From: Escherichia coli
Lineage (GTDB): Bacteria; Pseudomonadota; Gammaproteobacteria; Enterobacterales; Enterobacteriaceae
Length of the DNA: 64,000 nt
Strand: one strand, 5' to 3'
NCBI RefSeq assembly: GCF_041248615.1
Contig: NZ_CP158426.1
Shown here: one piece after another, positions 7,206-28,285 of the stretch
How the letters are laid out: every line of letters starts with the position of its first letter
Numbering within the stretch: position 1 is the stretch's first letter
The notes under the pieces: generated by a model
What the model was told of the DNA's origin: nothing
What the model saw: the letters and a program-made list of their open reading frames with translations, nothing else
The model's database searches: none
Made by a program: the position numbers and the translations under genes

Positions 7206-7683
7206 TGGAGGCTTTCGCGATTTCAGTTTTCACCACATCAAGGTGTGATGGTGAAATGTCCGGATATTTACGCTGTAATGTCAACGGCACACGCACAAGT
7301 ATCCCCGAAATCTCCTGTGCCACACGTTGCAGAATGAAGGTAAACAGTTCAGTTTCCAGCACTACTCCGTCTTCACGGGCATTTTTCAGTTCCTGCGCAT
7401 CTGCCTGCGCTTTTGTGAGCCGGTAGCGTTCATAGTCAATGGTGCCGGGTTGTAAATCTGACTCCGCTGCCGCACGCAAATCGTCCAGTTCTTTGCGGAG
7501 CTTTTCGTTTTCGATATCAGTTTCCCTCTGCGCATACCACTGAATTGCCATGGCAGTATCAAATACAGATTCAATGCCCTTACTACCTTTGGAGGCGCAA
7601 GGGAGTCCCTGAGACTGCCAGCGTTCAATCGTCCGCGGGTCCACGTTGAAAATTTCGGCAAGCCTCTTTTTATTAACCTTCAT
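7135..7683 (-). CDS. terminase small subunit (lambda Nu1 family)
   Basis: 182-aa ORF; N-terminal [12 protein letters not shown]... and [21 protein letters not shown] motifs as in lambda Nu1; 3' end overlaps A. Confidence 0.9.
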
Positions 7684-7799
7684 GAAAACAACCCATTATC
7701 AAATACAAGGCCCGACATGAAAACGCCAGAAAAAGGCATTTTCGGACACTTTCATGTCGGACCTTTACGGATGCAATATTAAAAAAAACAAAAAGTTAT

Positions 7800-7880
7800 A
7801 TTCGAGAAGTACCGACACGATTTTCCCTGAAAAATTTTCATAAATAGTGAAAAACCGCGAGGTCGCCGCCCCGTAACCTG
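7800..7880 (-). other. cos site (cosN core about 7860-7871 plus flanking terminase-binding region)
   Basis: minus strand reads GGGGCGGCGACCTCGCGGTTTTTCACTATTTATGAAAATTTTTCAGG, near-identical to the lambda cos sequence as I recall it; lies upstream of Nu1. Confidence 0.75.
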
Positions 7881-8019
7881 TTGGATCGACGGAAAGGACC
7901 CGAAAACGAGAATAATTATCACTTACAGCAAGAATCGAATCTGATCTATTATGGTGCTTGCTATTATGTGCCGGCACAAGTGCGTCGTTTACCGTCATTT
8001 CACACAGAGGCATCATCAA

Positions 8020-8271
8020 ATGAAAATCAGAAATATTCTCGCTATCTCCCTTGCGACATCATCCTTCAGTTGCCTGGCATTTAAATCCTCGCCCAATGTG
8101 CTACCAGGACCAACGAATCAACTAACTGCGGTAGAAAGTAAAATTATCGGACATTTTTATGCCCCACACAGTACATTACCCGGAACAACCATCACAGGGA
8201 CATGTGACGCCTCCCCCGTCCCGGGATGCACCTGTCCGTTTTGTACTATGCTGCGTAGCCAAAACCGATAA
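8020..8271 (+). CDS. hypothetical small secreted protein with Cys-rich C-terminus
   Basis: internal start MKIRNILAISLATSSFSCLA looks like a signal peptide; C-terminus TGTCDASPVPGCTCPFC; no family recognised; may be non-coding. Confidence 0.3.
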   Translation: MKIRNILAISLATSSFSCLAFKSSPNVLPGPTNQLTAVESKIIGHFYAPHSTLPGTTITGTCDASPVPGCTCPFCTMLRSQNR

Positions 8272-8634
8272 CATCCGCATTTACCTGGTATTCCATGATG
8301 AGTTCACGCAGCGACTGATAGAGGAAGGAAAGATGGTTAGTAAAAGCAAGGCGCATTGCCGCCGCATGCTGCAGGCATTGCAACAGACGAGAGCAGGTAT
8401 TTTTGACCAGTTGGAAAACTGCCAGCATACTTTGCCCGAGTATATCGCCATCTCATCGGAAACCAGTGCAACTCTTATTCATCGGGTTCCACCAGAGAAA
8501 AAGAAGAAATGAACAGTGAGGCGTTGTGTGGCATACAACGCCTTCTTCCATCATTCCTCGTCAGCCATGACAAAAATATAACCGCTGGCTCTTTCATTTT
8601 TCTCCTGCTTCCAGCCCCTCTCTACCTGGAAGCA

Positions 8635-8961: not shown

Positions 8962-9444
8962 TTTTATTCCTACGGGTCTTATTCTGACAATATATCCTGT
9001 GTTCCAGACTGCCACATCACCACATCCTGTGCCATTATCTGACTCACATTACATACATCGCATCGGGATACAGTAGTAGCACTTTCTGTAATACAGCTTC
9101 CTGTTTCTTCCACCATCGCACCGGGATAAACCCGCGAATCATTAACGCGGTAAAAACCCGGTGTGCATCGTTTTTAATTATTCCCGCACACTCACGCAGA
9201 AGGAATTCCCCGTCGGGCTACGGTCATGGTTAATGCGGGAATACGGCGACGATACAGCGCAGCTAAAAGGGTAATGGACGGATAGACCGGTTTATTTCAT
9301 TCCACAGGATTCTGAGTGTCCCCAACTTCCTCCAATAGTCTGAGCCCACCTGTGTAGTTTTAATTTTCATCAATCCATTTAACTATCGTTTAATTTTCTA
9401 CACATACGATTCTGCGAACTTCAAAAAGCATCGGGAATAACACC

Positions 9445-9738
9445 ATGAAAAAAATGCTACTCGCTACTGCGCTGGCCCTGCTTATTACAGGATGTGCTCA
9501 ACAGACGTTTACTGTTCAAAACAAACCGGCAGCAGTAGCACCAAAGGAAACCATCACCCATCATTTCTTCGTTTCTGGAATTGGGCAGAAGAAAACTGTC
9601 GATGCAGCCAAAATTTGTGGCGGCGCAGAAAATGTTGTTAAAACAGAAACCCAGCAAACATTCGTAAATGGATTGCTCGGTTTTATTACTTTAGGCATTT
9701 ATACTCCGCTGGAAGCGCGTGTGTATTGCTCACAATAA
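9445..9738 (+). CDS. bor: Bor lipoprotein (serum-resistance family)
   Basis: 97-aa ORF MKKMLLATALALLITGCAQQ..., matches lambda Bor as I recall it. Confidence 0.9.
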   Translation: MKKMLLATALALLITGCAQQTFTVQNKPAAVAPKETITHHFFVSGIGQKKTVDAAKICGGAENVVKTETQQTFVNGLLGFITLGIYTPLEARVYCSQ

Positions 9739-10940: not shown

Positions 10941-11528
10941 AACCCCACCTCGCAGACAAAGCGGGTGTAAATTAAGGGGATACTACGTATCGCAATAAAG
11001 GCAGAAACGTAACAGATTCGGAGTCAGTGAATAACTCAGGTATTGGGTTATCAGCTAATATCGAGACTCAAAAAATGGAAAAACCCGCTCGACGGCGGGT
11101 TTAAGCTGTGTGACGAAGTAACCACTCTTAACAGCATAACCAATTTTTTACGTACGTAAACTACTAAATGATATTTGTGAGAATGCCACCGAGTGTTCAA
11201 AACACCACCACAAATGCATAAGAAAACTTCAACAAATAACCAGTTAATAATTTCCGATGTTATTTTTAGTTTGTTTAAATTAAGCTAAAGAATTATAGAG
11301 CACTTATAAATAAGTGCCATTAATATAAATTAGCTAATAGATTTATTTTTGTTCAGACAAGAGCCATGAATAGGATTAGATAGAAAAGGTTCAGATAAAA
11401 ATAGAGATCTACTTCACAAATTAAATGAGAAACTAAAACTTACATCTTGAAATAATCACATTGATTAGATGAATATTTATCGCGCAGTGACATCATTTTT
11501 TAATAATAGTTCAAAAAAAGGGCGTACA

Positions 11529-12611
11529 ATGAAAAAATTAACAGTGGCAATTTCTGCTGTAGCTGCATCAGTACTGATGGCGATGTCTGCTCAGGCAGCT
11601 GAAATTTATAATAAAGACAGTAACAAGCTGGATCTATACGGGAAAGTTAATGCCAAGCACTACTTCTCCTCTAATGATGCAGATGATGGTGATACTACTT
11701 ATGCCCGTCTTGGCTTCAAAGGTGAAACCCAAATCAACGATCAACTGACTGGTTTCGGTCAGTGGGAATATGAATTCAAAGGCAACCGTGCTGAATCTCA
11801 AGGTTCTTCCAAAGACAAAACCCGTCTTGCATTTGCAGGCCTGAAATTTGGTGATTACGGCTCAATCGATTACGGCCGTAACTACGGTGTAGCATACGAC
11901 ATCGGTGCGTGGACTGACGTTCTGCCAGAATTCGGTGGTGATACCTGGACCCAAACAGATGTGTTCATGACTGGTCGCACTACTGGTGTTGCAACTTATC
12001 GTAACAACGACTTCTTTGGTCTGGTCGATGGCCTGAACTTTGCTGCTCAGTATCAGGGTAAAAATGACCGCACTGACGTAACTGAAGCCAATGGTGATGG
12101 TTTCGGTTTCTCCACTACTTATGAGTATGAAGGATTCGGCGTGGGTGCAACCTATGCTAAATCAGATCGCACTGACGGTCAGGTCGCCTATGGTAAGAGC
12201 AAATTCAATGCCTCCGGCAAAAATGCGGAAGTATGGGCTGCAGGCCTGAAATATGATGCGAACAATATCTATCTGGCTACCACATATTCTGAAACTCAGA
12301 ATATGACCGTTTTTGGTAATAACCATATTGCAAACAAAGCACAAAACTTTGAAGCAGTAGCACAATATCAGTTTGACTTCGGTCTGCGTCCATCTGTTGC
12401 TTACCTTCAGTCAAAAGGTAAAGACCTTGGTGTTCATGGTGACCGAGACTTAGTCAAGTATGTCGATGTCGGTGCTACTTACTACTTTAATAAAAACATG
12501 TCCACTTTTGTTGATTACAAAATCAACTTAATTGACGATAGTAAGTTTACCAAAACAGCTGGTATTGATACCGACGACATCGTCGCTGTAGGTCTGGTTT
12601 ATCAGTTCTAA
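11529..12611 (+). CDS. OmpC/OmpF-family outer-membrane porin (prophage moron, NmpC/Lc type)
   Basis: ORF 11469-12611; start [23 protein letters not shown] at 11529 (signal peptide); porin motifs and C-terminal VGLVYQF; preceded by ~350 bp of AT-rich DNA; opposite in orientation to the late operon. Confidence 0.85.
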
Positions 12612-17414: not shown

Positions 17415-17446
17415 AATGACTCCTGTGGATTGATCCAGTAATGACC

Positions 17447-17743
17447 TCAGAATTCCATCTGGATTTGTTCAGAACGCTCGGTTGCCGCCGGGCGTTTTTT
17501 ATTGGTGAGTCCATCAAGCGCATACTTAAAAGCCCTGCTAATCGGACTGATGTCTGATGCCATTCCGAAAGCACACAAGACCGAAGCAATAAATCTCCAG
17601 TCCGTTCTGCTTATCTTCGATTCATGACAGCCAATCATCTTTGCCAGACCGCGCTGGGTAATAGCTGACAGATTGATAAGTAAATCTGTTTCTGCGCGAT
17701 CAACGTCACGCTGTGATAGTTTGCTGTAACTTGTTCTTTCCAT
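17447..17743 (-). CDS. cII: CII transcriptional activator (mosaic: non-lambda N-terminal part, lambda-identical C-terminal tail)
   Basis: 98-aa ORF ending LTNKKRPAATERSEQIQMEF as lambda CII; N-terminal 75 residues differ. Confidence 0.8.
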   Translation of the reverse strand: MERTSYSKLSQRDVDRAETDLLINLSAITQRGLAKMIGCHESKISRTDWRFIASVLCAFGMASDISPISRAFKYALDGLTNKKRPAATERSEQIQMEF

Positions 17744-17828
17744 TTCTTAAGATTTCCAATAGTGAATAGTTAGTTGAAAGGTATGCGTGGAAACGCATAT
17801 GGCCTTAGTTGGTCAGATATCTTGGAAC

Positions 17829-17884: not shown

Positions 17885-18100
17885 TTAAGCGGCTTTGTGT
17901 TCCGGCGGGAACACGTCATCAAGACTGACTTTTGCGCCTAACTTGTTTAGGCACGCAACAAGAGCACGGCATGTTTTAAGGTCTGGGAAGCGACGACCAG
18001 ATTCCCAATGTCCGATAGCTCCCTGTGTGCATCCAACTGCCTTAGCAAGTGTTGTTTGAGAGATATTCAGTGACTCTCGATATTTTCGTAGGTTGCTCAT
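17885..18100 (-). CDS. cro: Cro-like repressor (XRE-family HTH)
   Basis: ORF 17885-18271; start MSNLRKYRESLNISQTTLAKAVGCTQGAIGHW at 18100 gives 71 aa; divergent from cI. Confidence 0.75.
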   Translation of the reverse strand: MSNLRKYRESLNISQTTLAKAVGCTQGAIGHWESGRRFPDLKTCRALVACLNKLGAKVSLDDVFPPEHKAA

Positions 18101-18217
18101 ATGCCCTCCATAGTAAACACGAATAAAAAAATACAATATGTACTTTGCGAATACAAGTAAAAATACACATTGTGCATGGATGGTTCCAGTACAGAGCGTA
18201 ATAATAAGGACATGAAA
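18101..18217. promoter_or_regulatory. OR operator region with divergent PR and PRM promoters
   Basis: 117-bp AT-rich intergenic region between divergent cro and cI; contains TACAATATGTACTTTG, which shares AAGTACATAT with an OL-region element. Confidence 0.6.
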
Positions 18218-18871
18218 ATGAAATGGTATGAACTGGCTAGATCCAGAATGAAAGAGCTCGGCATAACTCAAGAGAAGTTAGCCGAAGAGCTAGGTATGAC
18301 GCAGGGTGGGATTGGACACTGGTTGCGCGGATCTCGTCATCCATCTCTTAGTGATATTGGTGTGGTGTTTAAATACCTTGGTATTGATAACATATCATTC
18401 AACCACGACGGGACATTTTCACCTGTTGGCGAATACTCATCGGCCCCAGTTAAAAAACAATATGAGTACCCTGTTTTTTCTCATGTTCAGGCTGGGATGT
18501 TCTCTCCAGAACTCAGAACCTTTACCAAAGGCGATGCGGAGAGATTGGTAAGCACAACCAAAAAAGCCAGTGACTCTGCATTCTGGCTTGAGGTTGAAGG
18601 TAACTCAATGACCGCACCAACAGGTTCCAAACCCAGCTTTCCTGACGGGATGTTAATTCTGGTTGACCCTGAGCAAGCTGTTGAGCCCGGCGATTTCTGC
18701 ATAGCCAGACTTGGTGGTGATGAATTTACCTTCAAGAAACTGATCAGGGATAGCGGTCAGGTGTTTCTACAGCCACTAAACCCACAATACCCAATGATCC
18801 CATGCAATGAGAGTTGTTCCGTTGTGGGGAAAGTTATCGCCAGCCAATGGCCTGAAGAGACGTTTGGGTGA
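18218..18871 (+). CDS. cI: CI repressor (non-lambda N-terminal HTH domain, lambda-type C-terminal S24 autocleavage domain)
   Basis: ORF 18170-18871; preferred start ATG 18218 (AAGGA 7 nt upstream; ATG 18212 also possible); C-terminal ~140 aa match lambda CI as I recall it; [11 protein letters not shown] parallels Cro TQGAIGHW. Confidence 0.85.
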
Positions 18872-18910
18872 TGAAACCACTTTTATCTACAATTTACAGG
18901 GCGGTAAACA

Positions 18911-19468
18911 TTGGCAAAAATAGATGATTATCAGCCAAGCCAAGTAGAAGTTGATAAAGTACTTTATTGTAAAAAAATAGTTAACTTTTCTGGCGTTAAA
19001 TGGAAACAGAAACCAAGTCGCTCTGATATGTGGCTACAAGCCCATATCATCCCCTTGGATGAGGATTGTATACCTATACAAGGGCTAAAGTTTGAACTGA
19101 AATGGAAACCAGATCAGGATTCAGAACCTGATGACCCGATTTCTTACCCTAAAATAAATATTATTGCTTTCTATCATAACAAGAGGGTTTTCGCGGTAGA
19201 TACCTATCACTTTGACAAACACACGAATAGTTACAAGGTCGATCATCCGAAGTACCAAGATATCATTTACGGTGCTCACTACCATGTATACTATGAAGAA
19301 GCTGGATACTATAGTGATAGAATAGCGTTTCCAATCGAAGATGACATAAACCCAGATGACCTGGTAGGGTATTGGAATTACTTCTGTAAACATCTGAACA
19401 TAACTTACTCTGGGAGAATACCTTTACCGCTTGAAGATGAGTCGGGGCAAATGGGGTTTGGAATATGA
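18911..19468 (+). CDS. hypothetical protein A of the cI-proximal insert (rexA position)
   Basis: 185-aa ORF, probable TTG start, AT-rich codon usage, no family recognised, no obvious TM segments. Confidence 0.6.
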   Translation: MAKIDDYQPSQVEVDKVLYCKKIVNFSGVKWKQKPSRSDMWLQAHIIPLDEDCIPIQGLKFELKWKPDQDSEPDDPISYPKINIIAFYHNKRVFAVDTYHFDKHTNSYKVDHPKYQDIIYGAHYHVYYEEAGYYSDRIAFPIEDDINPDDLVGYWNYFCKHLNITYSGRIPLPLEDESGQMGFGI

Positions 19469-20217
19469 TGTGCTCAACAGTGATCTCACAACTAGGTTTC
19501 GAATGCCATCCAATAGGCAAGACCTTGAGAATTATCAGTCCATTCACTTACTGTGATGATGGAGAGCATGTCGGTGCCTTTATCCGTGAAGTCAATGGTA
19601 GGTATTTAGTTAGTGACAGATGCGATGCCTTAATGAATATGGAGGCAAGAGGGATCTCGCTTACCAAAAAACGACTTGATGAGATACGACAATTACTGCT
19701 TAAAGAAGGCGCAGAACTCAATGCTCGAGGAGAAATCATTGCTTGGGCAACAGAAAAGGATGTCGGTGCGATTACATCGAACATAATTAGAGCTGGTATA
19801 CTCGCATCAACTTTGTCGTTAGACTGGTATCAGCCAGTTCAAGCTGAAAAGTTTGAAAGTATGGTTATTGATTATCTATATCACACAGAGCTTAGAGACG
19901 CACTTTCTCTTCGTGAAAACGTATATGGCTTGAGTGGACATCAAATTACCGTCCCTGTAACAATAAAAACCGACATACCTAAATACGTTTTTACATCAAG
20001 CGTGAAACACGGAGGAAGCTGGAATAGTGCTTACTCATTGCTTGGGAAACTAATTGATCTTAAAGCTTCAAGTGAGGAGTATAACAACAGATTTGTTGTT
20101 ATAGACAGCGAAGCAATTGGTGATCAAATGCAACAACTCTCCTTACTCTTCCATGAATCAAGCCAAGTTCTACCATTCTCCAAAAGAGAGACTTGGGTTA
20201 AGAGACTTGCAGCATAA
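19465..20217 (+). CDS. hypothetical protein B of the cI-proximal insert (rexB position)
   Basis: 250-aa ORF with ATGATG start overlapping the stop of ORF A (ATGA overlap); AT-rich; no family recognised. Confidence 0.65.
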   Translation: MMCSTVISQLGFECHPIGKTLRIISPFTYCDDGEHVGAFIREVNGRYLVSDRCDALMNMEARGISLTKKRLDEIRQLLLKEGAELNARGEIIAWATEKDVGAITSNIIRAGILASTLSLDWYQPVQAEKFESMVIDYLYHTELRDALSLRENVYGLSGHQITVPVTIKTDIPKYVFTSSVKHGGSWNSAYSLLGKLIDLKASSEEYNNRFVVIDSEAIGDQMQQLSLLFHESSQVLPFSKRETWVKRLAA

Positions 20218-20222
20218 TACAA

Positions 20223-20248
20223 CCCGGCCTCAGCGCCGGGTTTTCTTT
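20223..20248 (+). terminator. intrinsic terminator ending the cI plus two-gene transcription unit
   Basis: stem CCCGGC/GCCGGG, loop CTCAGC, followed by TTTTCTTT; 6 nt after the ORF B stop. Confidence 0.6.
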
Positions 20249-20419
20249 GCCTCACGTTCGCCCACCTAAAAACACATAACCAATTATATTTATTGAAAAA
20301 TAAATAGATGCAACCCACTAAACCACGCAATTCTGATCTCTCCTTACATCGCCGAGGCAATACATCCACGCTAAAAAACAACACTATTAAATACAAAGCG
20401 TTATAAAAAACCACGCCAA

Positions 20420-20470: not shown

Positions 20471-20509
20471 GTCAGCAGGACGCTGGAAGCCAAATGGAAC
20501 AGACTGGCA

Positions 20510-20555
20510 GGCTCTTTAAACAACGTCGACTCTCGACTACGTGGCTGAAAAGCCA
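20510..20555 (+). promoter_or_regulatory. candidate nutL (boxA GGCTCTTTAAACAAC, boxB hairpin TGGCTGAAAAGCCA)
   Basis: boxA close to the GCTCTTTAACAA consensus; 5-bp stem with GAAA loop about 100 nt upstream of N. Confidence 0.55.
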
Positions 20556-20653
20556 GATCACCCAACCACATAAGCTGTGGGATGCAATGCCGAAGCAACC
20601 GTCTCAGGAGGAGCTTCGAGATTGCATCGCCAAAGTTTATTCGGGAGGAATCC

Positions 20654-20926
20654 ATGTCCAGAAAAACAGAATTTAAAGGCACCGCAGCTTCTCGCCGTAG
20701 AGCTCGTCGCGCAAATCTGCAAAGTCAGGAGGCGATCAGCTCCGACAAGCTACACAGGCCAACCCCTTCACGAGTGGTCTTGCAATGCAAGCTCAAACCA
20801 GCAATGAGAGCAGAAGTGATAACTCTGACAACGTTGACCAGAAAATATGAAGGTTCAACTTGTCTTCCGAACGTAGCTCTTTACGCGGCAGGCTACCGGA
20901 AATCAAAACAACTGACGGCGAGATGA
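20654..20926 (+). CDS. N: N-type antiterminator (P22 gp24-like)
   Basis: ORF 20582-20926; start MSRKTEFKGTAASRRRARRANLQSQ at 20654 (GGAGG upstream); arginine-rich motif; C-terminal LYAAGYRKSKQLTAR resembles P22 gp24. Confidence 0.75.
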   Translation: MSRKTEFKGTAASRRRARRANLQSQEAISSDKLHRPTPSRVVLQCKLKPAMRAEVITLTTLTRKYEGSTCLPNVALYAAGYRKSKQLTAR

Positions 20927-20942
20927 TAAATTCATTTGCTAA

Positions 20943-21524
20943 TTACTTGTTTTTGCCATGCTTATCCTGAGCGATAAGTTCATCCATAAGGCTGTCTGCC
21001 TTCCCGGCAAACCTAATGTAGCACTCATGTCTATAGCTTTCAGGGATAACGAAACGGTCGGTATCAGGATATCCAACAGCAGGAGGCCTTCGAACGAGGA
21101 GTCCTTTTTTGAGCAATGAAATTGATTCATGAGCGCCCTTTTCCGTTTGTAGCTGGTTATTAGCGGCTACAGCGAATGCCAAATACGCTCTTTCTCCAAG
21201 AGTTAACGAATCAAACAAATCTTGCACATATTTTTCTTCTTTAGATTTGCGCTTCTGAGCAGCGAATACCTCAATTCTTTCAGTCACAGCGTGATAAGCG
21301 GAATTAACAACGCCGTTAAGCACATAGCTAACGCAAAACAACAGGATGTAATACATCCAGTAATGAGGAAGGATTTCTGGACTATGCAGGTTTATCCATT
21401 CTTTTACGCTTACCGGCATAACAATAATCAATATGATCAGGATGATTAGCATATGAATCAACTGTTTAAGTGTCATTCCTTGCAGGAAAAAATGCATTAG
21501 TTCCTGCCACCATGAGTTGTTCAT
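20943..21524 (-). CDS. sieB: superinfection exclusion protein SieB-like (membrane protein)
   Basis: 193-aa ORF MNNSWWQELMHFFLQGMTLKQLIHMLIILIILIIVMPV with TM segments, antisense immediately downstream of N. Confidence 0.6.
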   Translation of the reverse strand: MNNSWWQELMHFFLQGMTLKQLIHMLIILIILIIVMPVSVKEWINLHSPEILPHYWMYYILLFCVSYVLNGVVNSAYHAVTERIEVFAAQKRKSKEEKYVQDLFDSLTLGERAYLAFAVAANNQLQTEKGAHESISLLKKGLLVRRPPAVGYPDTDRFVIPESYRHECYIRFAGKADSLMDELIAQDKHGKNK

Positions 21525-21938: not shown

Positions 21939-22164
21939 TAGTGGCCTTTATTTTTGGCATAAATAACAGAATAAACACTGCACTGTGTATTCATTCCAAC
22001 GAGTGAATACACGGAGCAATGTCGCTCGTAACTAAACAGGAGCCGACTTGTTCTGATTGTTGGAAATCTTCTTTGCCCTCCAGTGTGAGGGCTTTTTTAT
22101 ATGCATACCAATAACGCTTCACTCGAGGCGTTTTCGTTATGCAATCAAATATAAGGAGTTACCC

Positions 22165-22299
22165 ATGATGCACTTTCAGCTCGCGGGTAGCGGCGTCATG
22201 TCCGCTTTCTACCCGCACGAATCTGAATTATCACGCAGAGTTAAACAATTAATCAGAGCAGCAAAGAAACAACTGGAGGCGTTATGCGCAATGAAATAG
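22165..22299 (+). CDS. CIII-like small protein (candidate FtsH inhibitor)
   Basis: 44-aa ORF MMHFQLAGSGVMSAFYPHESELSRRVKQL with AAGGAG 6 nt upstream; loosely resembles lambda CIII. Confidence 0.4.
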   Translation: MMHFQLAGSGVMSAFYPHESELSRRVKQLIRAAKKQLEALCAMK

Positions 22300-22436
22300 C
22301 CATTAATCACCAGATGCTTCGTGCTGCACAGAACAAAGCAGTAATAGCCAGATTTATTGGTGATTCAAAAATGTGGCTTGAAGCAAATAAAGCGATGAAA
22401 TCAGCTATCAACCTTCCGTGGTATCGCAGGAAATGA
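22284..22436 (+). CDS. Kil-like small protein
   Basis: 50-aa ORF MRNEIAINHQMLRAAQNKAVIARFIGDSKMWLEAN...; GGAGG upstream; FIGD.KM motif resembles lambda Kil from memory. Confidence 0.4.
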   Translation: MRNEIAINHQMLRAAQNKAVIARFIGDSKMWLEANKAMKSAINLPWYRRK

Positions 22437-22517
22437 GTTTTACAGATAACTGGTCAGACGAAGAATTCATTCGTCAGATGAAAGAAATGCTCAATCAGCA
22501 CAAAGAACAGGAGAAAG

Positions 22518-22829
22518 ATGATGATTCTGACTCTGAATGATAAGCGTGAAATATCGCAAATAATCGCAAGTTTTACTGATGAAGATTACGAACGAATCAA
22601 CAGTGAAGTTGATCGCCTCTGCAAACGTTGCGACCCAATAAGCGAAATGCTTCGCTCATATAAACCAGATGAACACACTAAGGACGCTATCGACTGGCTG
22701 GAAGATGATGACTGTAACTATCAGGAAAAAGCCGCTGAATGGTTCTGGGATGCAATAACCGAAAGAGTTAAGGCTGAATATGCCTTCGCAATATTCAAAC
22801 GCAGACACATTTATGGAGAAGCAGCATGA
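22518..22829 (+). CDS. hypothetical acidic protein, overlapping the recT start
   Basis: 103-aa ORF; stop overlaps the recT start; no family assigned. Confidence 0.5.
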   Translation: MMILTLNDKREISQIIASFTDEDYERINSEVDRLCKRCDPISEMLRSYKPDEHTKDAIDWLEDDDCNYQEKAAEWFWDAITERVKAEYAFAIFKRRHIYGEAA

Positions 22830-23737
22830 GCAATATCGTTGAATTCGTTAAACAGCAGGAGCAGTTATTCTGCGGGGCATTGACTGAACAGACGGTGACA
22901 TGGGCTAAGGAAAGCCAGTTTGCAATTCAGTATTTCCAGAAAAATGATTACCTGGCTAAAACAGCACTGGCAAATCCAACCAGCGCACAGAACGCCATCA
23001 TCAATGTTGCGGCGATCGGTATCACCTTAAACCCGGCTAGCAAACTGGCTTATCTGGTTCCGCGCGACGGCATGGTTTGCCTTGATATCAGCTATATGGG
23101 ATTGCTACATATTGCAATGGAGTCTGGTGTTATCTCATGGGGTCAGGCAAAGCTTGTTCATGCTAACGATACTTATGAGTCAAACGGACTTGATAAAGCA
23201 CCAACCCATAAATACAACGCCTTCGGTGATCGTGGCGATATCGTTGGTGTTTACTGCACAGTTAAGACGCCAGCAGGTGATTATCTAACGGAAGAGATGA
23301 GTCTGGCTGAAATTGAGGCTGTAAGGAAAACAAGCAAGGCGGCATTCAGCGATAAAGGACCATGGGTAAATCACTGGAATGAGATGGCGCGAAAGACGGT
23401 CGTAAAGCGTGCAAGCAAGTATTGGCCTAAGGCATCACGTCTTGATAGTGCTATTCACGTACTAAACGAAGAAGAAGGTGTATGGACTGAACCAGTTATG
23501 CCTCACAAATCAGAGGAAGATATCCGCGAAGATGAACGGAAACGCCAGCAGGAAATAACGGATAAAGCACAACTTCTTTGTGATGAAATGGCTCAGGCTG
23601 AAAACATGGATGATTTGAAGAGATATTTTGCAGAAGCATATCGCCTGACATCTGGAATGAAATTGCAGCAGAACATACAAGCCATTTACATAGAATGCAA
23701 AGCGAAACTGGAGGTTGCCAGTGAGCAAACTATATGA
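22826..23737 (+). CDS. recT: RecT-family single-strand annealing recombinase
   Basis: 303-aa ORF with GPWVNHWNEMARKTVVKRASKYWP, paralleling the E. coli RecT motif. Confidence 0.8.
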   Translation: MSNIVEFVKQQEQLFCGALTEQTVTWAKESQFAIQYFQKNDYLAKTALANPTSAQNAIINVAAIGITLNPASKLAYLVPRDGMVCLDISYMGLLHIAMESGVISWGQAKLVHANDTYESNGLDKAPTHKYNAFGDRGDIVGVYCTVKTPAGDYLTEEMSLAEIEAVRKTSKAAFSDKGPWVNHWNEMARKTVVKRASKYWPKASRLDSAIHVLNEEEGVWTEPVMPHKSEEDIREDERKRQQEITDKAQLLCDEMAQAENMDDLKRYFAEAYRLTSGMKLQQNIQAIYIECKAKLEVASEQTI

Positions 23738-24203
23738 AATTGCCAATGAATACGCAAAATTGATGGATTCAGATTTAGAACCAGAGATGATTGCTGACAC
23801 AATAGAAGGCATGGAAGGAGAATTTACCGATAAAATAGAACAACTTCTTTCCGTCATTAAAAATGAATCTGGTTATGCCGAACGCCTCAAGGAAGAGGCA
23901 AAGTCACTAAATGAGCGAGCCGCAGTAATTCAAAACAAGATTGACAGCATCAAATCATATATAGCGTCATCGCTTGAAATGGTTGGAAAGAAAAATATTC
24001 GAGCAGGTATTCACCAGGTAACAATCCGCAAACCGTCAGAAACTGTAGAAATCATCGACTCAAGCGCCCTTCCTCCTGAATACGTTGAGTTCGAAACGAC
24101 AATTAAAGCCGACAAACTGGCAATCAAACACCAACTAAAAGCAGGAATAAATATCCCCGGTGCTCAACTCAAAGTTGGAAAACCTTCACTTCTTATCAAA
24201 TAA
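23715..24203 (+). CDS. hypothetical phage protein (possibly siphovirus Gp157-like, often next to recT)
   Basis: 162-aa ORF in operon context; family call from memory only. Confidence 0.4.
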   Translation: MPVSKLYEIANEYAKLMDSDLEPEMIADTIEGMEGEFTDKIEQLLSVIKNESGYAERLKEEAKSLNERAAVIQNKIDSIKSYIASSLEMVGKKNIRAGIHQVTIRKPSETVEIIDSSALPPEYVEFETTIKADKLAIKHQLKAGINIPGAQLKVGKPSLLIK

Positions 24204-24214
24204 CGGTATCGCCT

Positions 24215-24529
24215 ATGAAAAAGACTCCATGGGAGAAATGGGAAGTCGATTTCTTGCGCGAGGTAGCGGCGACAATGCCAGTTGAAGTTATCGCAGAAAA
24301 ACTGGAAAGGACTGAAAAAGCAGTAATGGCGAAAGCAACAAGGATTGGCGCTGACATTGTTAGCCGACTTCGTGGAAGACGATGGACAAGAGCCGAAGTA
24401 TCACTTTTCGGTAAGTTCTCAGCAGAAGAAATAGCAATTGCAACCTGCCGCTCAATTTATTCAGTAAGAGCTATGCGATACAAGCTAAAAAAACTCGATG
24501 AAGAAAGAGCAGGCATACGAATAAATTAA
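24215..24529 (+). CDS. hypothetical protein
   Basis: 104-aa ORF in the early-left operon. Confidence 0.5.
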   Translation: MKKTPWEKWEVDFLREVAATMPVEVIAEKLERTEKAVMAKATRIGADIVSRLRGRRWTRAEVSLFGKFSAEEIAIATCRSIYSVRAMRYKLKKLDEERAGIRIN

Positions 24530-24545
24530 CATGGAGTAATTAACA

Positions 24546-24827
24546 ATGAAGCTAAACATCGACCTCGGAAAATACGTTATTACCGGAACCAAACACGACC
24601 TGATTCTTAGTGAAAGAGGAATTATCAAAGAAGGCGAGAATGCAGGGAAAGAAACACTAAGCCGTATCGGTTATTACAGCAAGTTTGAGCATCTGGTTAA
24701 AGAGTTATGCAACCGTGAAATCCTGTTATCTCAGGCGCAGACGCTACAGGATATTCAGCAGCATATCGAGACTTTAGGTATGTCACTTAGCATGGCTATT
24801 GACCAGTTAGTGGAGAGTAAATCATGA
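24546..24827 (+). CDS. hypothetical protein
   Basis: 93-aa ORF in the early-left operon. Confidence 0.5.
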
Positions 24828-24984
24828 GAGGACTTGCATACAATCCCGGAATTCTTCCGGCAGAAATGATTATTCGCCAACGCGTAAAGCCAATGCCATC
24901 GAGAGAGGAATTGCTTAAGAGAAATTCTTTTCCATCAGTGAATCAAAACAAATATCTGAATGCGATGTGGCGGAGTGGGAAGAA

Positions 24985-25416
24985 ATGAAACAAATGTCAC
25001 TAATTGAGATGGATGGTTTTCTGAAAGGTAAATGCATCCCAAGTGATTTAAAGGTTAACGAAACAAACGCTGAATATCTGGTGCGTAAATTTGCTGAAGC
25101 GGAGGCCAAGTGCGCGGCGCTGGCAGCGGAGAATGCGGGGCTGAAGTCTGGCGCTATGGGCGAAATCAAGGTTATCAACCGTGGAGGGCAGGCATATTGC
25201 GTAAAAGATGGAGTGCAAGTTAATCCCATGTATGCAAGAGGGTGGAATGACTATCGCGCAAAGTCTCTGCAATCAGACACCCAAGCCACCGATGCTTTCC
25301 TGGCTGAAGTACGGGCGCAGGGCGTGGAGATGTTTGCTGAGTGCGCATACACACTTGAACATCATGATCACGCAGTAGCCTTCGCCGCTGAGCTTCGCAA
25401 AGGAGGCAACCAGTGA
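24985..25416 (+). CDS. hypothetical protein
   Basis: ORF 24967-25416; likely ATG start at 24985 ([11 protein letters not shown]...). Confidence 0.5.
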
Positions 25417-25958
25417 GTGTAACGGTTGAAAAGATTGATGTGTTGTCATTCGTTATAACCGGTGCAGAGCGACTAGATCCGGTTCGAGTGATGATTGAAA
25501 ACTACGAACCTGGTAAGGGAAGAATCACCATCACCTGCTACGGAAAGGCGTGGACTGCGGCTTGGTTTGCTATGGGCGGTGATGATGTGCAGACGTTCAT
25601 TAAGCGGGTCAGCAACGAGTATCTAATCGGCTATTTCGACCCACAACTGCGAAGCACGGTCGACGATGACAACGATGCAAATCTGCTTTTCGTGAAGTCA
25701 GAAATCATAAAGTTACGAAGAGAGAGAGAAATAGACGCCGTACTGGCTCGCGAAATGTGGGACGAGGCGGAAAACGCCGATGACGTAAAAGAAAGCTGCT
25801 GCTGTTTCGGCGTCGGTAACAAACTACTGAATCTCTTTGGTGATGATCCGTGGTATGCCGACTGGCCAACGGTACCAAACCCGAAATACCAGTATCTGGA
25901 ACGCGTACTTAATGCAGTGAGAGACGGTCTTAAGCAAATAGAGAAGGTGGAACCATGA
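25413..25958 (+). CDS. hypothetical protein
   Basis: 181-aa ORF, GTG start with AGGAGG 7 nt upstream; start overlaps the previous stop. Confidence 0.55.
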   Translation: MSVTVEKIDVLSFVITGAERLDPVRVMIENYEPGKGRITITCYGKAWTAAWFAMGGDDVQTFIKRVSNEYLIGYFDPQLRSTVDDDNDANLLFVKSEIIKLRREREIDAVLAREMWDEAENADDVKESCCCFGVGNKLLNLFGDDPWYADWPTVPNPKYQYLERVLNAVRDGLKQIEKVEP

Positions 25959-26254
25959 CTGTATGTCTTATTGATAAACGTCGACGTGGGCAACAAATAC
26001 CATCTGTTGAAATGCCGAATCACACATGGTTTTGCGTACTTGATATCGATGGCATGGATAAGTTTGTTGACACTCGTCATTACTGCGATACCGCAACAGC
26101 TACTCCGGCGAAAGCAAAGAAAATGGCTGCTCTGATAGAAAACTGGACTCCACCTGATGGTTGGTGCAATGGGAATGATCGAGATTGGCACGAAAAAATG
26201 AAGGGCTATATCTGCGATTTTTTACGTAAATGCAACGGATTCAGGGTGATGTGA
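25955..26254 (+). CDS. hypothetical protein
   Basis: 99-aa ORF; ATGA overlap with the previous ORF. Confidence 0.5.
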   Translation: MTVCLIDKRRRGQQIPSVEMPNHTWFCVLDIDGMDKFVDTRHYCDTATATPAKAKKMAALIENWTPPDGWCNGNDRDWHEKMKGYICDFLRKCNGFRVM

Positions 26255-26255
26255 C

Positions 26256-26888
26256 ATGAGCAAGATTGACTATCAGGCACTGCGTGAAGCGGCAGAGCGT
26301 GCAATTCCGGCAATGGAACGCCTGTTAATGTTGCCAGCTGATGATGATTTGTTAAGTGAACAGGAACTTAAAGATTACGGTGTGGATATTGATGCGCTCA
26401 ACGCCTTCAAATTTCTGACCGGACCAGAAACCGTGCTGGCGCTGCTGGATGAACGGGAAAGAAACCAGCAATACATAAAACGCCGCGATCAGGAGAACGA
26501 GGATATTGCGCTAACGGTAGGGAAACTGCGTGTTGAGCTTGAGGAAGCAAAATCAAAACTCAACGAGCAACGCGAGTATTACGAAGGTGTTATCTCGGAT
26601 GGGAGTAAGCGTATTGCTGAACTGGAAGCACGGGAAATAAAACCAGCCAAAGGTGAAGTTCTTGTCGTTGTTTCTGGTTTTACTGGTTGCGGAAAAAGCG
26701 CCATTGCCGGGGAAATAGAAATCGCGATGAAGGCTATTGGTGTACCGGTTAAGTGGACTAATGGCGATGCAGAAAAGCGCATGACTGGCGCTGACTGGCT
26801 GACAGCGATTGAGATGTACAAACCAACTGTGCGCATCGTGGAAGTTAATGTGCCACGCGCCGCTGGCATTCGCATCAAAGGAGACTGA
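26256..26888 (+). CDS. hypothetical protein with predicted coiled-coil middle region
   Basis: 210-aa ORF. Confidence 0.5.
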   Translation: MSKIDYQALREAAERAIPAMERLLMLPADDDLLSEQELKDYGVDIDALNAFKFLTGPETVLALLDERERNQQYIKRRDQENEDIALTVGKLRVELEEAKSKLNEQREYYEGVISDGSKRIAELEAREIKPAKGEVLVVVSGFTGCGKSAIAGEIEIAMKAIGVPVKWTNGDAEKRMTGADWLTAIEMYKPTVRIVEVNVPRAAGIRIKGD

Positions 26889-26889
26889 T

Positions 26890-27087
26890 ATGGATAAAAA
26901 CACCACTGCTTACTGGAATCTGTCACTTGATACCGAATGCCCAAAATGCGGTCACAATTTCGATCTGCTTTGCGATCCAGATTTCTGGGAATTTTCTGGA
27001 GCAAAACAGGCATGTGAAGAAATAAAAGGTTACGAAACATGCTGTCCAGAATGTAACCATGAATTTAAAACAGATTTTGTGTATTGA
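26890..27087 (+). CDS. small zinc-ribbon-like protein
   Basis: 65-aa ORF MDKNTTAYWNL... with CPKCGH and CCPECNH cysteine pairs. Confidence 0.45.
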   Translation: MDKNTTAYWNLSLDTECPKCGHNFDLLCDPDFWEFSGAKQACEEIKGYETCCPECNHEFKTDFVY

Positions 27088-27097
27088 GGCATAACGA

Positions 27098-28285
27098 ATG
27101 ACCACTTTTACTAAAGAACAATTAATAGAGATGATTAAGCGCAATATAACGGTTATGGATCGTTATCCTGATTTAGTAACTGCACAAATGGATCTGGAAG
27201 TATACAAAATTGCGCTGGCATCACTGGAAGCAGAACCAGTTGCTTATATTTTCAAACATCCGGCCGGGAAATTATTCTGGGCTTTAACGGATGAAAGCAA
27301 TAAAGAGCAACCGGACGTTATTCCTGTTTATGCTGACTCACCTGCGCCGGTTGTGCCGGATGAAATAGACGTAAACGATGTGCCAAGGGCGGTGACATAT
27401 TTCAAGACACACAGAGATTGTTACGCAGATGGCTGGAACGCCTGCCGCGCCGCCATGCTTCAGTCCGGAAACTTTCGGGAAAACAAGAATTCGTCAACCA
27501 ATAATTTTCGGGAAATCGCGGAAACGTCAACCAACTATCCGGTAATTCCTAGTGAGGTGTTGTCCGCAATCCAGAAGGTTGCCAAGATTCGTGCCGATTT
27601 CGATGATTTTGACGGTGACAGGCGAGGTATCGGTGATTGTCTGGATGAGGCTGAGCAAGAGCTTATCGTTACCATTAACAAATATGCCAGTCAGTTGGCA
27701 GCAGAACCTATAGCGCCTAATGACGTTCGAGAGCAGCAGACAGCCGTTCCGCCAGTTCCAGAAATACAGGCTGATGTCGCGCAAGCAATTGAAAATCTCA
27801 AGCAGAAGTTAGTGGAATGCAATCGCTATAACTACTGTGCAGATGCAGTTAAAGGCGTAGAGGATGCCTGCCGTGCTGTTAGCTATAGCCAAGCCGACAA
27901 TCAGCCAGCATCTGGCAACCAGGCTGCCGAATCCAATCGCGATAATGAGTGGACTGGCAATCCTGATATTGATAACGCCATCATCATGCTCGACCGCATA
28001 GATACGCTGGAAAATTGCGATGATGACCGTATTGAGGCTGTTAAGGCTGTTTTGCGTAGACTGGCTGGCAACTATCCGGTAACTCCGGATAGTTGGATAA
28101 GCTGTAGTGAGCGAATGCCCGCTCAAGATGATTGGATTTTAATTTATTCAAAGCACGGCGAGTATATGGCAGGACAGGTACAAGGGGAATACGTGGAGTT
28201 GAGCGACGGCACTTTATCGTGGTTAGGGAACGCCTTGTACTGGATGCCTCTACCAGAACCGCCGAAGGAGGTTAACCGTGGCTAA
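27098..28285 (+). CDS. hypothetical phage protein with C-terminal DUF551-like domain
   Basis: 395-aa ORF; C-terminal WISCSERMPAQDDWILIYSKHGEYMAG typical of DUF551 from memory. Confidence 0.5.
   Translation: MTTFTKEQLIEMIKRNITVMDRYPDLVTAQMDLEVYKIALASLEAEPVAYIFKHPAGKLFWALTDESNKEQPDVIPVYADSPAPVVPDEIDVNDVPRAVTYFKTHRDCYADGWNACRAAMLQSGNFRENKNSSTNNFREIAETSTNYPVIPSEVLSAIQKVAKIRADFDDFDGDRRGIGDCLDEAEQELIVTINKYASQLAAEPIAPNDVREQQTAVPPVPEIQADVAQAIENLKQKLVECNRYNYCADAVKGVEDACRAVSYSQADNQPASGNQAAESNRDNEWTGNPDIDNAIIMLDRIDTLENCDDDRIEAVKAVLRRLAGNYPVTPDSWISCSERMPAQDDWILIYSKHGEYMAGQVQGEYVELSDGTLSWLGNALYWMPLPEPPKEVNRG

What the first reader, a model, noticed from the sequence alone, without database searches (positions are those of the whole stretch)
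18872..20250. Uncharacterised two-gene AT-rich insert at the rexAB position, directly downstream of cI
Two overlapping ORFs (18911-19468, 185 aa, probable TTG start; 19465-20217, 250 aa) sit immediately after cI on the same strand. The ATGA start/stop overlap suggests translational coupling. They are followed 6 nt later by a clean intrinsic terminator (20223-20248), then PL/OL, a boxA-boxB nutL and N. In lambda this slot holds rexA-rexB, which are co-transcribed with cI in the lysogen and abort superinfecting phage. The segment looks clearly AT-richer than the flanking phage backbone (codons dominated by AAA, AAT, ATA, GAT, TAT), consistent with a horizontally acquired moron. I recognise no family for either protein, and neither has an obvious membrane-spanning segment, so this would not be a RexAB-like channel system. 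Constitutive expression from the repressor promoter in every lysogen is the hallmark of prophage exclusion or abortive-infection cargo.
Basis: partly seen in the sequence, partly recalled or inferred. Interest (0 to 1): 0.8.

Follow-up and report, generated by a model that had tools for sequence, protein, structure and literature searches.

The report
Untested prophage defence-candidate gene pair
Two overlapping, uncharacterised genes sit directly behind the repressor gene of an E. coli lambda-like prophage (also in probiotic strain Nissle 1917), a position kept in many related phages, and they are most likely an untested system protecting the host from other phages.

Summary
ORF-A (18911-19468, TTG start) and ORF-B (19465-20217) overlap by ATGA. 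They follow cI after an unstructured 39-nt gap and end at a strong terminator. They are the most AT-rich 1.3 kb of the window and have no membrane segments.

ORF-B is a DUF1828 + DUF1829 protein: a YbjN/type-III-chaperone-like N-domain plus a restriction-endonuclease-fold C-domain that lacks the canonical catalytic motif. ORF-A is a marginal DUF6978 relative with an invariant Asp/His/Asn/His/His cluster and no solved structural relative.

The pair is a discrete mosaic cassette (18912-20251). In 62 of 62 intact viral-contig copies, and in Aeromonas, Klebsiella, Thorsellia and Pseudomonas prophages, A precedes B with a 4-nt overlap. It always lies downstream of the prophage repressor on the same strand, behind at least 21 repressor types.

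It is present in 249 of 5426 complete E. coli genomes. Both exact proteins are listed as "predicted novel defense gene" in DefensePredictor's tables but were not screened. ORF-B is a distant relative of the untested PADLOC candidate PDC-M24B.

Best reading: a lysogen-expressed, cytoplasmic two-protein anti-phage module. Function and mechanism are unproven.

The parts
18101..18175 (.). cro-cI divergent intergenic region (OR/PRM-type control region). It is the presumed source of the lysogenic transcript that reads through cI into the pair.
   Evidence: Lies between cro (17885-18100, minus strand) and cI (18176-18871, plus strand), as annotated in the identical phage PhiR57_1. Promoter and operators were not mapped here, so this is inferred.
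18176..18871 (+). cI-type repressor (LexA/S24 family, 231 aa). It is the upstream gene of the operon.
   Evidence: Annotated as cI in PhiR57_1 and as a LexA family protein in RefSeq. A repressor-like gene is the nearest upstream same-strand gene in 62 of 62 viral loci.
18872..18910 (+). 39-nt cI to ORF-A spacer with no terminator.
   Evidence: No terminator-like site. The fold is no better than shuffles, z -0.06.
18911..19468 (+). ORF-A, 185 aa, soluble, TTG start. Confidently predicted fold with no solved relative. Family invariants are K22, W31, R92, D97, N106, G121, H123, H125, F158 and P173; H104 is nearly invariant. The disordered C-terminal tail carries a conserved GQ motif.
19465..19468 (+). 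ATGA start/stop overlap (translational coupling signal).
   Evidence: The same 4-nt overlap occurs in 62 of 63 viral loci and in remote pairs from metagenomes, Pseudomonas, Aeromonas, Klebsiella and Thorsellia.
19465..20217 (+). ORF-B, 250 aa, soluble. The N-domain (about residues 1-120) is DUF1828 with a YbjN/T3SS-chaperone-like fold. The C-domain (about residues 127-250) is DUF1829 with a PD-(D/E)xK (restriction endonuclease) fold but no canonical D...(D/E)xK motif.
20221..20250 (+). Intrinsic terminator that closes the cI-A-B transcription unit (equivalent of lambda tImm).
   Evidence: -14.6 kcal/mol, z -3.5, followed by UUUUCUUU.
18912..20251 (+). Extent of the exchangeable cassette (pair plus terminator), defined by mosaic homology breakpoints.
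   Evidence: L040 matches the window only at 18912-20251. L037 carries the same pair behind a different immunity region. In L034 homology ends at 20381.

Best explanation
The pair is a cargo ('moron') cassette of temperate phages. It is transcribed with the repressor in the lysogen and most likely acts as a cytoplasmic two-protein anti-phage system, by exclusion or abortive infection.

Working model, with the status of each step:
1. Shown from sequence: the lysogenic repressor transcript can run through the 39-nt gap into ORF-A and ORF-B and stop at the terminator at 20221-20250.
2. Shown: translation of B is coupled to A by a universally conserved ATGA overlap, and A nearly always starts with a weak GTG/TTG codon. 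Inferred: A is made at low, fixed stoichiometry with B and the two form a complex.
3. Inferred: ORF-B's chaperone-like DUF1828 domain is the protein-binding or sensing part. It may hold ORF-A, perhaps through A's conserved disordered C-terminal GQ tail, or recognise a phage product.
4. Inferred: on superinfection the complex is activated and one partner acts enzymatically. Candidates are ORF-A through its invariant Asp/His/Asn/His/His cluster (a likely metal site), or ORF-B's restriction-endonuclease-fold domain through a non-canonical site (SGH157-159, K195, D198, R209). I favour ORF-A as the catalytic effector and ORF-B as its regulator or sensor, because the canonical nuclease motif is absent from the whole B family.
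For: Position and expression logic:
- Same strand as cI, 39 nt after it, no intervening terminator, own terminator.
- The conserved cassette starts exactly at the ORF-A start codon, so it carries no promoter of its own.

Conserved module:
- A then B with a 4-nt overlap in 62 of 63 IMG/VR loci.
- The same arrangement holds in remote pairs down to 22-30% identity.
- Strong purifying selection: dS is saturated, dN is 0.11-0.63, and omega is about 0.075 where computable.

Conserved habitat:
- The nearest upstream same-strand gene is a repressor in 62 of 62 loci, spanning 21 repressor clusters.
- The same holds in Aeromonas, Klebsiella Rac-like, Thorsellia and Pseudomonas prophages.
- This slot holds rexAB in lambda and bstA in BTP1 (PMC8585504).

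Independent defence predictions:
- PADLOC PDC-M24B match, full length, E 4.7e-10. PDC-M24 is an A>>B cassette found embedded in BREX/DISARM/type I RM loci (bioRxiv 10.1101/2024.01.29.577857).
- DefensePredictor lists WP_000968518.1 and WP_001062368.1 as predicted novel defence genes (PMC13092281 Tables S5/S10). These accessions are identical to the window proteins by the RefSeq annotation of identical DNA.

Other support:
- Folds.
- AT-rich foreign composition.
- The pair is retained intact in the defective Nissle 1917 prophage.
Against: - No experimental evidence of expression or phage resistance exists in anything I could read.
- DefensePredictor's overall validation rate was only 45%, and it uses genomic context, so it is not independent of the position argument.
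- The PDC-M24 link is distant for B. For A it is marginal: E 4.8e-4 for the window protein, and no hit for four other A homologs.
- ORF-B's endonuclease-fold domain lacks the canonical catalytic D...(D/E)xK across the family.
- ORF-A's metal site is inferred from conservation alone.
- The A-B complex and the tail-docking idea were not tested, because no multimer prediction was available.
- A constant position next to the repressor is equally expected for a regulator of the lysis-lysogeny switch.
Confidence: 0.55

Rival explanations
1. Toxin-antitoxin or addiction module. Its main role would be to stabilise the prophage or its immunity region. One protein would be a toxin (probably ORF-A, kept low by its GTG/TTG start) and the other a neutralising partner (ORF-B, with its chaperone-like domain). 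Any anti-phage effect would be secondary.
For: - Two small, coupled, soluble proteins with fixed order and overlap.
- A weak start codon on A is conserved.
- In the validated HipAD/DS-6 system, the partner of the HipA-like toxin carries a weakly predicted DUF1829 domain and is proposed to act as an antitoxin (PMC13092281).
- The pair is retained in the decayed Nissle prophage.
Against: - No match to any known toxin or antitoxin family in Pfam, NCBIfam or PADLOC.
- No DNA-binding antitoxin domain and no own promoter for autoregulation.
- TA and abortive-infection roles are not mutually exclusive, so this rival overlaps the best explanation.
Confidence: 0.13
2. Accessory regulators of the prophage's own lysis-lysogeny switch or induction. 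They might, for example, modulate repressor activity or cleavage. The model is the reported switch-modulating role of lambda RexA (from my own knowledge, not checked here).
For: The pair is invariably placed directly behind the repressor and in its operon, across at least 21 repressor types and several genera.
Against: - The identical pair works behind unrelated repressors, both S24-type and short RacR-like HTH. That is hard to reconcile with a specific repressor partner.
- In Pseudomonas prophages other cargo genes separate it from the repressor.
- Distant relatives of B (PDC-M24) occur inside BREX/DISARM/RM loci rather than in phages.
- The prophage in Nissle is defective yet keeps the pair.
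Confidence: 0.1
3. Direct nuclease restriction. ORF-B would be the effector: an endonuclease of the restriction-enzyme fold that cuts incoming phage DNA. ORF-A would be a specificity or activating subunit. There would be no abortive infection.
For: - Published HHpred places residues 155-241 in DUF1829, PDDEXK clan.
- PD-(D/E)xK nucleases were the most common domain among validated DefensePredictor systems.
- An invariant acidic residue, D198, sits in the helix after beta-3, where NgoMIV-type enzymes place their last catalytic Glu. That placement is recalled from memory and was not tested.
Against: - The beta-2 Asp and the beta-3 (D/E)xK are absent in all 30 divergent family members. H159 stands at the beta-2 position. 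K173 and K181 are not conserved.
- No self/non-self mechanism such as a methyltransferase is present in the cassette.
Confidence: 0.12
4. Lysogenic-conversion cargo unrelated to phage defence (for example a host-physiology or virulence function), or an anti-defence function.
For: - The same prophage carries other conversion genes, iss and an ompC-like porin.
- The pair is found in many extraintestinal pathogenic strains such as NU14, UTI89 and APEC.
Against: - No signal peptide or membrane segment.
- No similarity to any virulence or metabolic family.
- It also occurs in environmental Pseudomonas, Azotobacter and Aeromonas prophages.
- Both defence predictors flag it.
Confidence: 0.07

Closest known systems
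Lambda RexA/RexB (abortive-infection pair in the cI-N slot)
   Same: Same genomic slot and logic: two genes directly after cI on the same strand, closed by a terminator before PL/N, and therefore expressed in the lysogen (PMC8585504).
   Different: No sequence, profile or fold similarity. RexB is a membrane protein, whereas both proteins here are soluble. There is no Rex hit in PADLOC.
BstA of Salmonella prophage BTP1
   Same: It is encoded downstream of the prophage repressor, presumably sharing its promoter. That position is conserved across genera, it has its own terminator, and it mediates abortive infection (PMC8585504).
   Different: BstA is a single protein of an unrelated family. No PADLOC, Pfam or PHROG relation was found. 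No aba-like self-immunity element was looked for here.
PADLOC phage-defence candidate PDC-M24 (Payne et al., bioRxiv 10.1101/2024.01.29.577857)
   Same: It is a two-gene A>>B cassette. ORF-B matches the PDC-M24B profiles over their full length (E 4.7e-10), and B homologs from four other genera also match. ORF-A matches PDC-M24A and DUF6978 over the His-cluster region.
   Different: The relation is distant. ORF-A matches only partially (E 4.8e-4), and other A-family members do not match at all. PDC-M24 was defined from copies embedded in BREX/DISARM/type I RM loci, whereas this clade lives in prophage immunity regions. PDC-M24 itself is untested.
HipAD / DS-6 (DefensePredictor; Brenes & Laub 2025)
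   Same: A prophage-associated two-gene system in which the second protein carries a DUF1829-like domain (HHpred 0.78) and is proposed to bind and control the first protein, the effector.
   Different: The effector there is a HipA-family kinase, and the partner's N-domain is DUF3037 rather than DUF1828. ORF-A is not a kinase.
PD-(D/E)xK defence nucleases (e.g. NgoMIV-type restriction enzymes, Can2/Card1 nuclease domains)
   Different: The canonical catalytic residues are not conserved. There is no CARF, helicase or methyltransferase partner.

Membership tests
RexAB | RexB-type polytopic membrane protein paired with a cytosolic RexA | tested here: not met
   No segment in either protein reaches membrane-helix hydropathy: maximum 19-residue KD is 0.45 and 1.19. 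No Rex model hit in PADLOC.
RexAB | Location between cI and the PL/N region, same strand as cI, terminator before PL | tested here: met
PADLOC PDC-M24 | B component matches the PDC-M24B profile | tested here: met
   PDLC04540 E 4.7e-10, residues 2-249 on profile positions 4-254 of 256. Homologs from Aeromonas, Pseudomonas and a metagenome also hit, at 3.5e-5 to 1.8e-12.
PADLOC PDC-M24 | A component matches the PDC-M24A profile | tested here: inconclusive
   The window protein matches at E 4.8e-4, covering only profile positions 79-134 of 148. Four other A-family members give no hit at E<=0.01.
PADLOC PDC-M24 | Adjacent, same-strand A>>B gene order | tested here: met
   Order FAM_00129>>FAM_00065 in the source table. 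Here A then B with a 4-nt overlap.
Pfam DUF1828 (PF08861) | Profile match | tested here: met
   E 9.1e-8, residues 26-110. 29 of 30 divergent family members match.
Pfam DUF1829 (PF08862) / PD-(D/E)xK clan | Restriction-endonuclease-like alpha-beta-beta-beta-alpha-beta fold in the C-domain | tested here: met
Pfam DUF1829 (PF08862) / PD-(D/E)xK clan | Catalytic D (beta-2) ... (D/E)xK (beta-3) motif | tested here: not met
   Alignments A4 and A5 conserve only G155, S157, G158, H159, P164, W186, K195, D198 and R209. There is no conserved acid at beta-2 and no (D/E)xK at beta-3. Strand positions come from the AF2 model. Three-dimensional proximity was not examined.
Pfam DUF6978 (PF22398) | Profile match | tested here: inconclusive
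   E 4.6e-4 over residues 104-164 only. 2 of 32 family members match at E<=1e-3 and 20 of 32 at E<=0.1.
Type II toxin-antitoxin system | One protein toxic alone and neutralised by direct binding of the other | not testable with these tools
   Needs expression experiments or multimer prediction. No known toxin or antitoxin domain was found.
Validated anti-phage defence system (any) | Experimentally shown reduction of phage infection | not testable with these tools
   The pair is absent from DefensePredictor's list of screened transcription units, Table S6. Brenes & Laub 2025 (PMID 40409266) is not held and could not be checked.

The most novel reading that the evidence does not exclude
The pair is the founding, experimentally tractable example of a widespread repressor-linked defence family of gammaproteobacterial temperate phages. 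In this reading a histidine-cluster metalloenzyme of a previously unseen fold (ORF-A) is the effector. It is held and released by a partner that combines a chaperone-like domain with a catalytically remodelled endonuclease fold (ORF-B). The pair would also be the unidentified prophage-3 factor behind E. coli Nissle 1917's complete resistance to lambda and Stx phages (PMC5987069).
Probability: 0.25. Interest if true: 0.75.

Novelty: new variant of a known kind. Interest (0 to 1): 0.6.

Why it matters
If the pair is a working defence system, it adds a mechanistically new two-protein module to the set of lysogen-expressed exclusion systems that occupy the classic rexAB slot. One protein has no structural relatives, and the other is an endonuclease fold without the usual active site.

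It is carried by about 4.6% of complete E. coli genomes. Carriers include the probiotic Nissle 1917, the type strain and uropathogenic strains. It could therefore bear on phage-therapy host range and on why Nissle resists Stx-converting phages.

The strict link between the cassette and the repressor operon, across at least 21 immunity types, also gives a simple rule for finding further cargo in that slot. The experiments needed are simple: clone two genes and plate phages.

Tried and rejected
- Sequence-profile searches of both families against all PDB chains found nothing real. The only 'hit' was a designed Kelch-repeat protein matching a low-complexity stretch.
- NCBIfam gave nothing.
- Rfam at a permissive threshold over 17-22 kb gave only two sub-threshold chance matches, so there is no known RNA element in the cassette.
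- Literature searches for PDC-M24 and PhiR57 found no papers. The accession/Pfam-id search found no main-text mention of WP_000968518 or WP_001062368; it surfaced DefensePredictor through DUF1829. The DUF1828 and DUF6978 mentions are incidental.
- I guessed an operator consensus (TACAANNNNTTGTA) to mark OL/OR. It occurred no more often than chance, so I dropped it and operators are not mapped.
- I first took the cI start as the ATG at 18214. It is out of frame, and the correct start is 18176.
- I considered that Bury et al.'s protective 'phage repressor pr' might be this operon. Their primers map to the cII-like gene at 17421-17789 instead.
- dN/dS could mostly not be computed because synonymous sites are saturated.
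Full report
**1. Observation**

The window carries a lambda-like prophage integrated next to icd. It is collinear with the E. coli NU14 prophage over 1-22100 at 99.76% identity, and host genes begin near 31.9 kb.

- Layout. ORF-A (18911-19468, 185 aa, TTG start) and ORF-B (19465-20217, 250 aa) lie on the plus strand with an ATGA start/stop overlap.
- Upstream. They follow a LexA/S24-type cI repressor (18176-18871) after a 39-nt spacer. The spacer has no terminator and folds no better than shuffled sequence.
- Downstream. They are closed by an 8-bp GC hairpin plus U-run at 20221-20250 (-14.6 kcal/mol, z -3.5). A boxA-like GCTCTTTAA, a boxB hairpin and N follow (read; N, SieB, Ral, cIII, Kil, Gam and Bet are annotated in the identical phage PhiR57_1).
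- Composition. The pair has GC 0.396, against 0.492 for the window and 0.467 for cI. It is the 0.3rd percentile of all equal-sized windows.
- Solubility. Neither protein has a membrane-spanning segment.

**2. What the proteins are**

*ORF-B.*
- It matches Pfam DUF1828 (E 9e-8; 29 of 30 divergent relatives match), PHROG 1960, and the PADLOC candidate profile PDC-M24B over its full length (E 4.7e-10).
- This agrees with a published HHpred assignment of residues 155-241 to DUF1829, Pfam clan PDDEXK (PMC13092281 Table S5).
- Across 30 relatives down to 22% identity, the conserved C-domain residues are G155, S157, G158, H159, P164, W186, K195, D198 and R209. The canonical beta-2 Asp and beta-3 (D/E)xK are absent.
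- The N-domain carries invariant C3, C14, D32, D51, G89 and E90.

*ORF-A.*
- It matches PHROG 2017. It matches DUF6978 and PDC-M24A only marginally, over residues 104-164.
- A profile search of 1.84 billion representative proteins found only 20 relatives.
- The family invariants are K22, W31, R92, D97, N106, G121, H123, H125, F158 and P173, with H104 nearly invariant. This looks like a metal or active site (inference). A preprint says the same of DUF6978 in passing.
- The last dozen or so residues are predicted disordered but carry a conserved GQ motif.

**3. The pair is one module with a fixed place**

- Prevalence. Identical DNA occurs in 249 of 5426 complete E. coli genomes, always chromosomal. 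Carriers include Nissle 1917, ATCC 11775 and NU14. It also occurs in five sequenced coliphages.
- Gene order. In 63 IMG/VR loci encoding an ORF-B relative, 62 have an ORF-A relative ending 4 nt inside ORF-B. One of these 62 (L039) has ORF-A split in two. The remaining locus (L077) is a truncated ORF-B without ORF-A.
- Remote pairs. Remote ORF-A relatives (22-32% identity) from metagenomes are each followed by a DUF1828 gene with the same overlap. So is an unannotated ORF in Pseudomonas phage phPA-G.
- Habitat. In 62 of 62 loci the nearest upstream same-strand gene is a repressor, either S24-type or a short RacR-like HTH. The 31 non-identical contexts fall into 21 repressor clusters.
- Other genera. 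Aeromonas, Klebsiella (Rac-like), Thorsellia and Pseudomonas prophages show the same arrangement. In Pseudomonas, other cargo genes sometimes lie in between.
- Cassette edges. Homology breakpoints define the cassette as 18912-20251: the pair plus terminator, without a promoter. The identical pair also sits behind a different immunity region in L037.
- Selection. Synonymous sites are saturated while dN is 0.11-0.63, so both genes are under purifying selection. ORF-A diverges faster than ORF-B.
- Start codon. ORF-A's start codon is GTG or TTG in 24 of 27 alignable homologs.

**4. Function**

No experiment addresses these genes in anything I could read. The case for defence is indirect but comes from several directions.

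- (a) The slot holds rexAB in lambda and bstA in BTP1, and it is a recognised mosaic hotspot read from the highly active repressor promoter (PMC8585504).
- (b) ORF-B is a distant relative of PDC-M24B. That is a two-gene A>>B candidate found embedded in BREX/DISARM/type I RM loci, and it is itself untested.
- (c) DefensePredictor lists exactly these two proteins (WP_001062368.1 and WP_000968518.1) as predicted novel defence genes, with log-odds 4.9-5.6 against a cutoff of 4. They are not among the transcription units it screened, and its validation rate was 45%.
- (d) The cassette is compositionally foreign, freely exchanged between immunity regions, and kept intact in the defective Nissle prophage.

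I therefore rate 'lysogen-expressed anti-phage module' at about 0.55.

Within that reading, I favour a complex in which ORF-B senses or regulates through its chaperone-like domain and ORF-A supplies the chemistry through its His cluster. The reason is that the nuclease motif is missing family-wide in ORF-B. This assignment is inference and could be reversed.

The rivals are a toxin-antitoxin or addiction role, a role in the prophage's own switch, direct restriction by ORF-B, and unrelated conversion cargo.

**5. Comparison and novelty**

The pair works like RexAB and BstA in genomic logic but belongs to neither family. It is a sister of the untested PADLOC candidate PDC-M24, and it shares a DUF1829-type partner domain with HipAD/DS-6.

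The genes have already been flagged computationally, and defence cargo in this slot is an established theme. So this is a new variant of a known kind rather than something categorically new. The unexplored ORF-A fold and the remodelled endonuclease domain are the novel parts.

One caveat remains. Brenes & Laub 2025, which screened E. coli prophages for defence against temperate phages, is not in the library. If the pair was validated there, it is already known.

**6. Link to Nissle 1917**

Bury et al. 2018 (PMC5987069) reported that Nissle resists lambda and Stx phages, and that part of this maps to prophage 3. They concluded that a further unidentified prophage factor must exist.

Their 'phage repressor pr' primers map to the cII-like gene at 17421-17789, not to cI. 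The pair studied here lies 1.1 kb away in the same prophage and is an obvious, untested candidate for that factor.

Noticed in passing
window 17421-17789 (cII-like ORF 17447-17743, minus strand): The 'phage repressor pr' (EcN_1294) of Bury et al. 2018 lowered lambda and Stx phage plating about 200-fold when cloned in MG1655. Their primers map to this prophage's cII homologue, not to the cI/LexA-type repressor at 18176-18871.
   Followed up: partly
window 18911 and homologous loci L003, L006, L040-L076: The ORF-A start codon is GTG (21) or TTG (3) in 24 of 27 alignable distinct homologs, preceded by only a weak GGA-type Shine-Dalgarno sequence. ORF-B always starts ATG (often ATG-ATG). A weak start that is conserved suggests ORF-A dosage is deliberately kept low.
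   Followed up: partly
L013 (Pseudomonas phage VB_PaD_phPA-G, PP083311.1) 3420-4004: An unannotated ORF overlaps the DUF1828 gene (4001-4756) by 4 nt. It carries the ORF-A family motifs (VVAID..HMN..HPHLH..W..F..N..GQMGF). The GenBank record misses this gene.
   Followed up: yes
window 20943-21524 (minus strand): A SieB-type superinfection-exclusion gene lies directly after N, on the opposite strand. The immunity region therefore carries a second, known exclusion function next to the pair.
   Followed up: no
window about 9443-9736 and about 11527-12609 (coordinates transferred from NU14 locus L079): By collinearity with the annotated NU14 prophage, the late region carries iss (serum-survival lipoprotein, bor-like) and a prophage-borne ompC-like porin gene between Q and the lysis genes. 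A TonB-family gene is also present. I did not verify the ORFs in the window itself.
   Followed up: no
window 22100-28265: This early-left-operon stretch has no counterpart in the otherwise 98-99.8% identical NU14 prophage, so it is another mosaic replacement. Its content was not examined.
   Followed up: no
window 20494-20676: RefSeq annotates a 60-aa hypothetical CDS (WP_000438342.1) here. It lies over the boxA/boxB nutL element and overlaps the N start, so it is probably a spurious call.
   Followed up: no
L002 (E. coli Nissle 1917 derivative, NZ_CP035486.1) 6749-8354: In Nissle the prophage is cut short after sieB by an ISEc52 insertion and a truncated integrase. The cI-ORF-A-ORF-B unit is nonetheless 100% identical and intact.
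   Followed up: partly
L083 4200-5405, L081 1081-4195, L013 2680-3330: In Pseudomonas prophages the slot between the repressor and the pair holds further unknown cargo genes. One is a BRCT-domain protein in L083 (4640-5143); the 216-aa ORF at L013 2680-3330 is unclassified. This suggests a multi-gene cargo array downstream of the repressor.
   Followed up: no
ORF-B residues 3 and 14 (window 19471-19473, 19504-19506): Two cysteines at the extreme N-terminus (C3, C14) are invariant in all 30 divergent ORF-B relatives, along with D32, D51 and E90. That is unusual for a chaperone-like fold, and it is unexplained.
   Followed up: no
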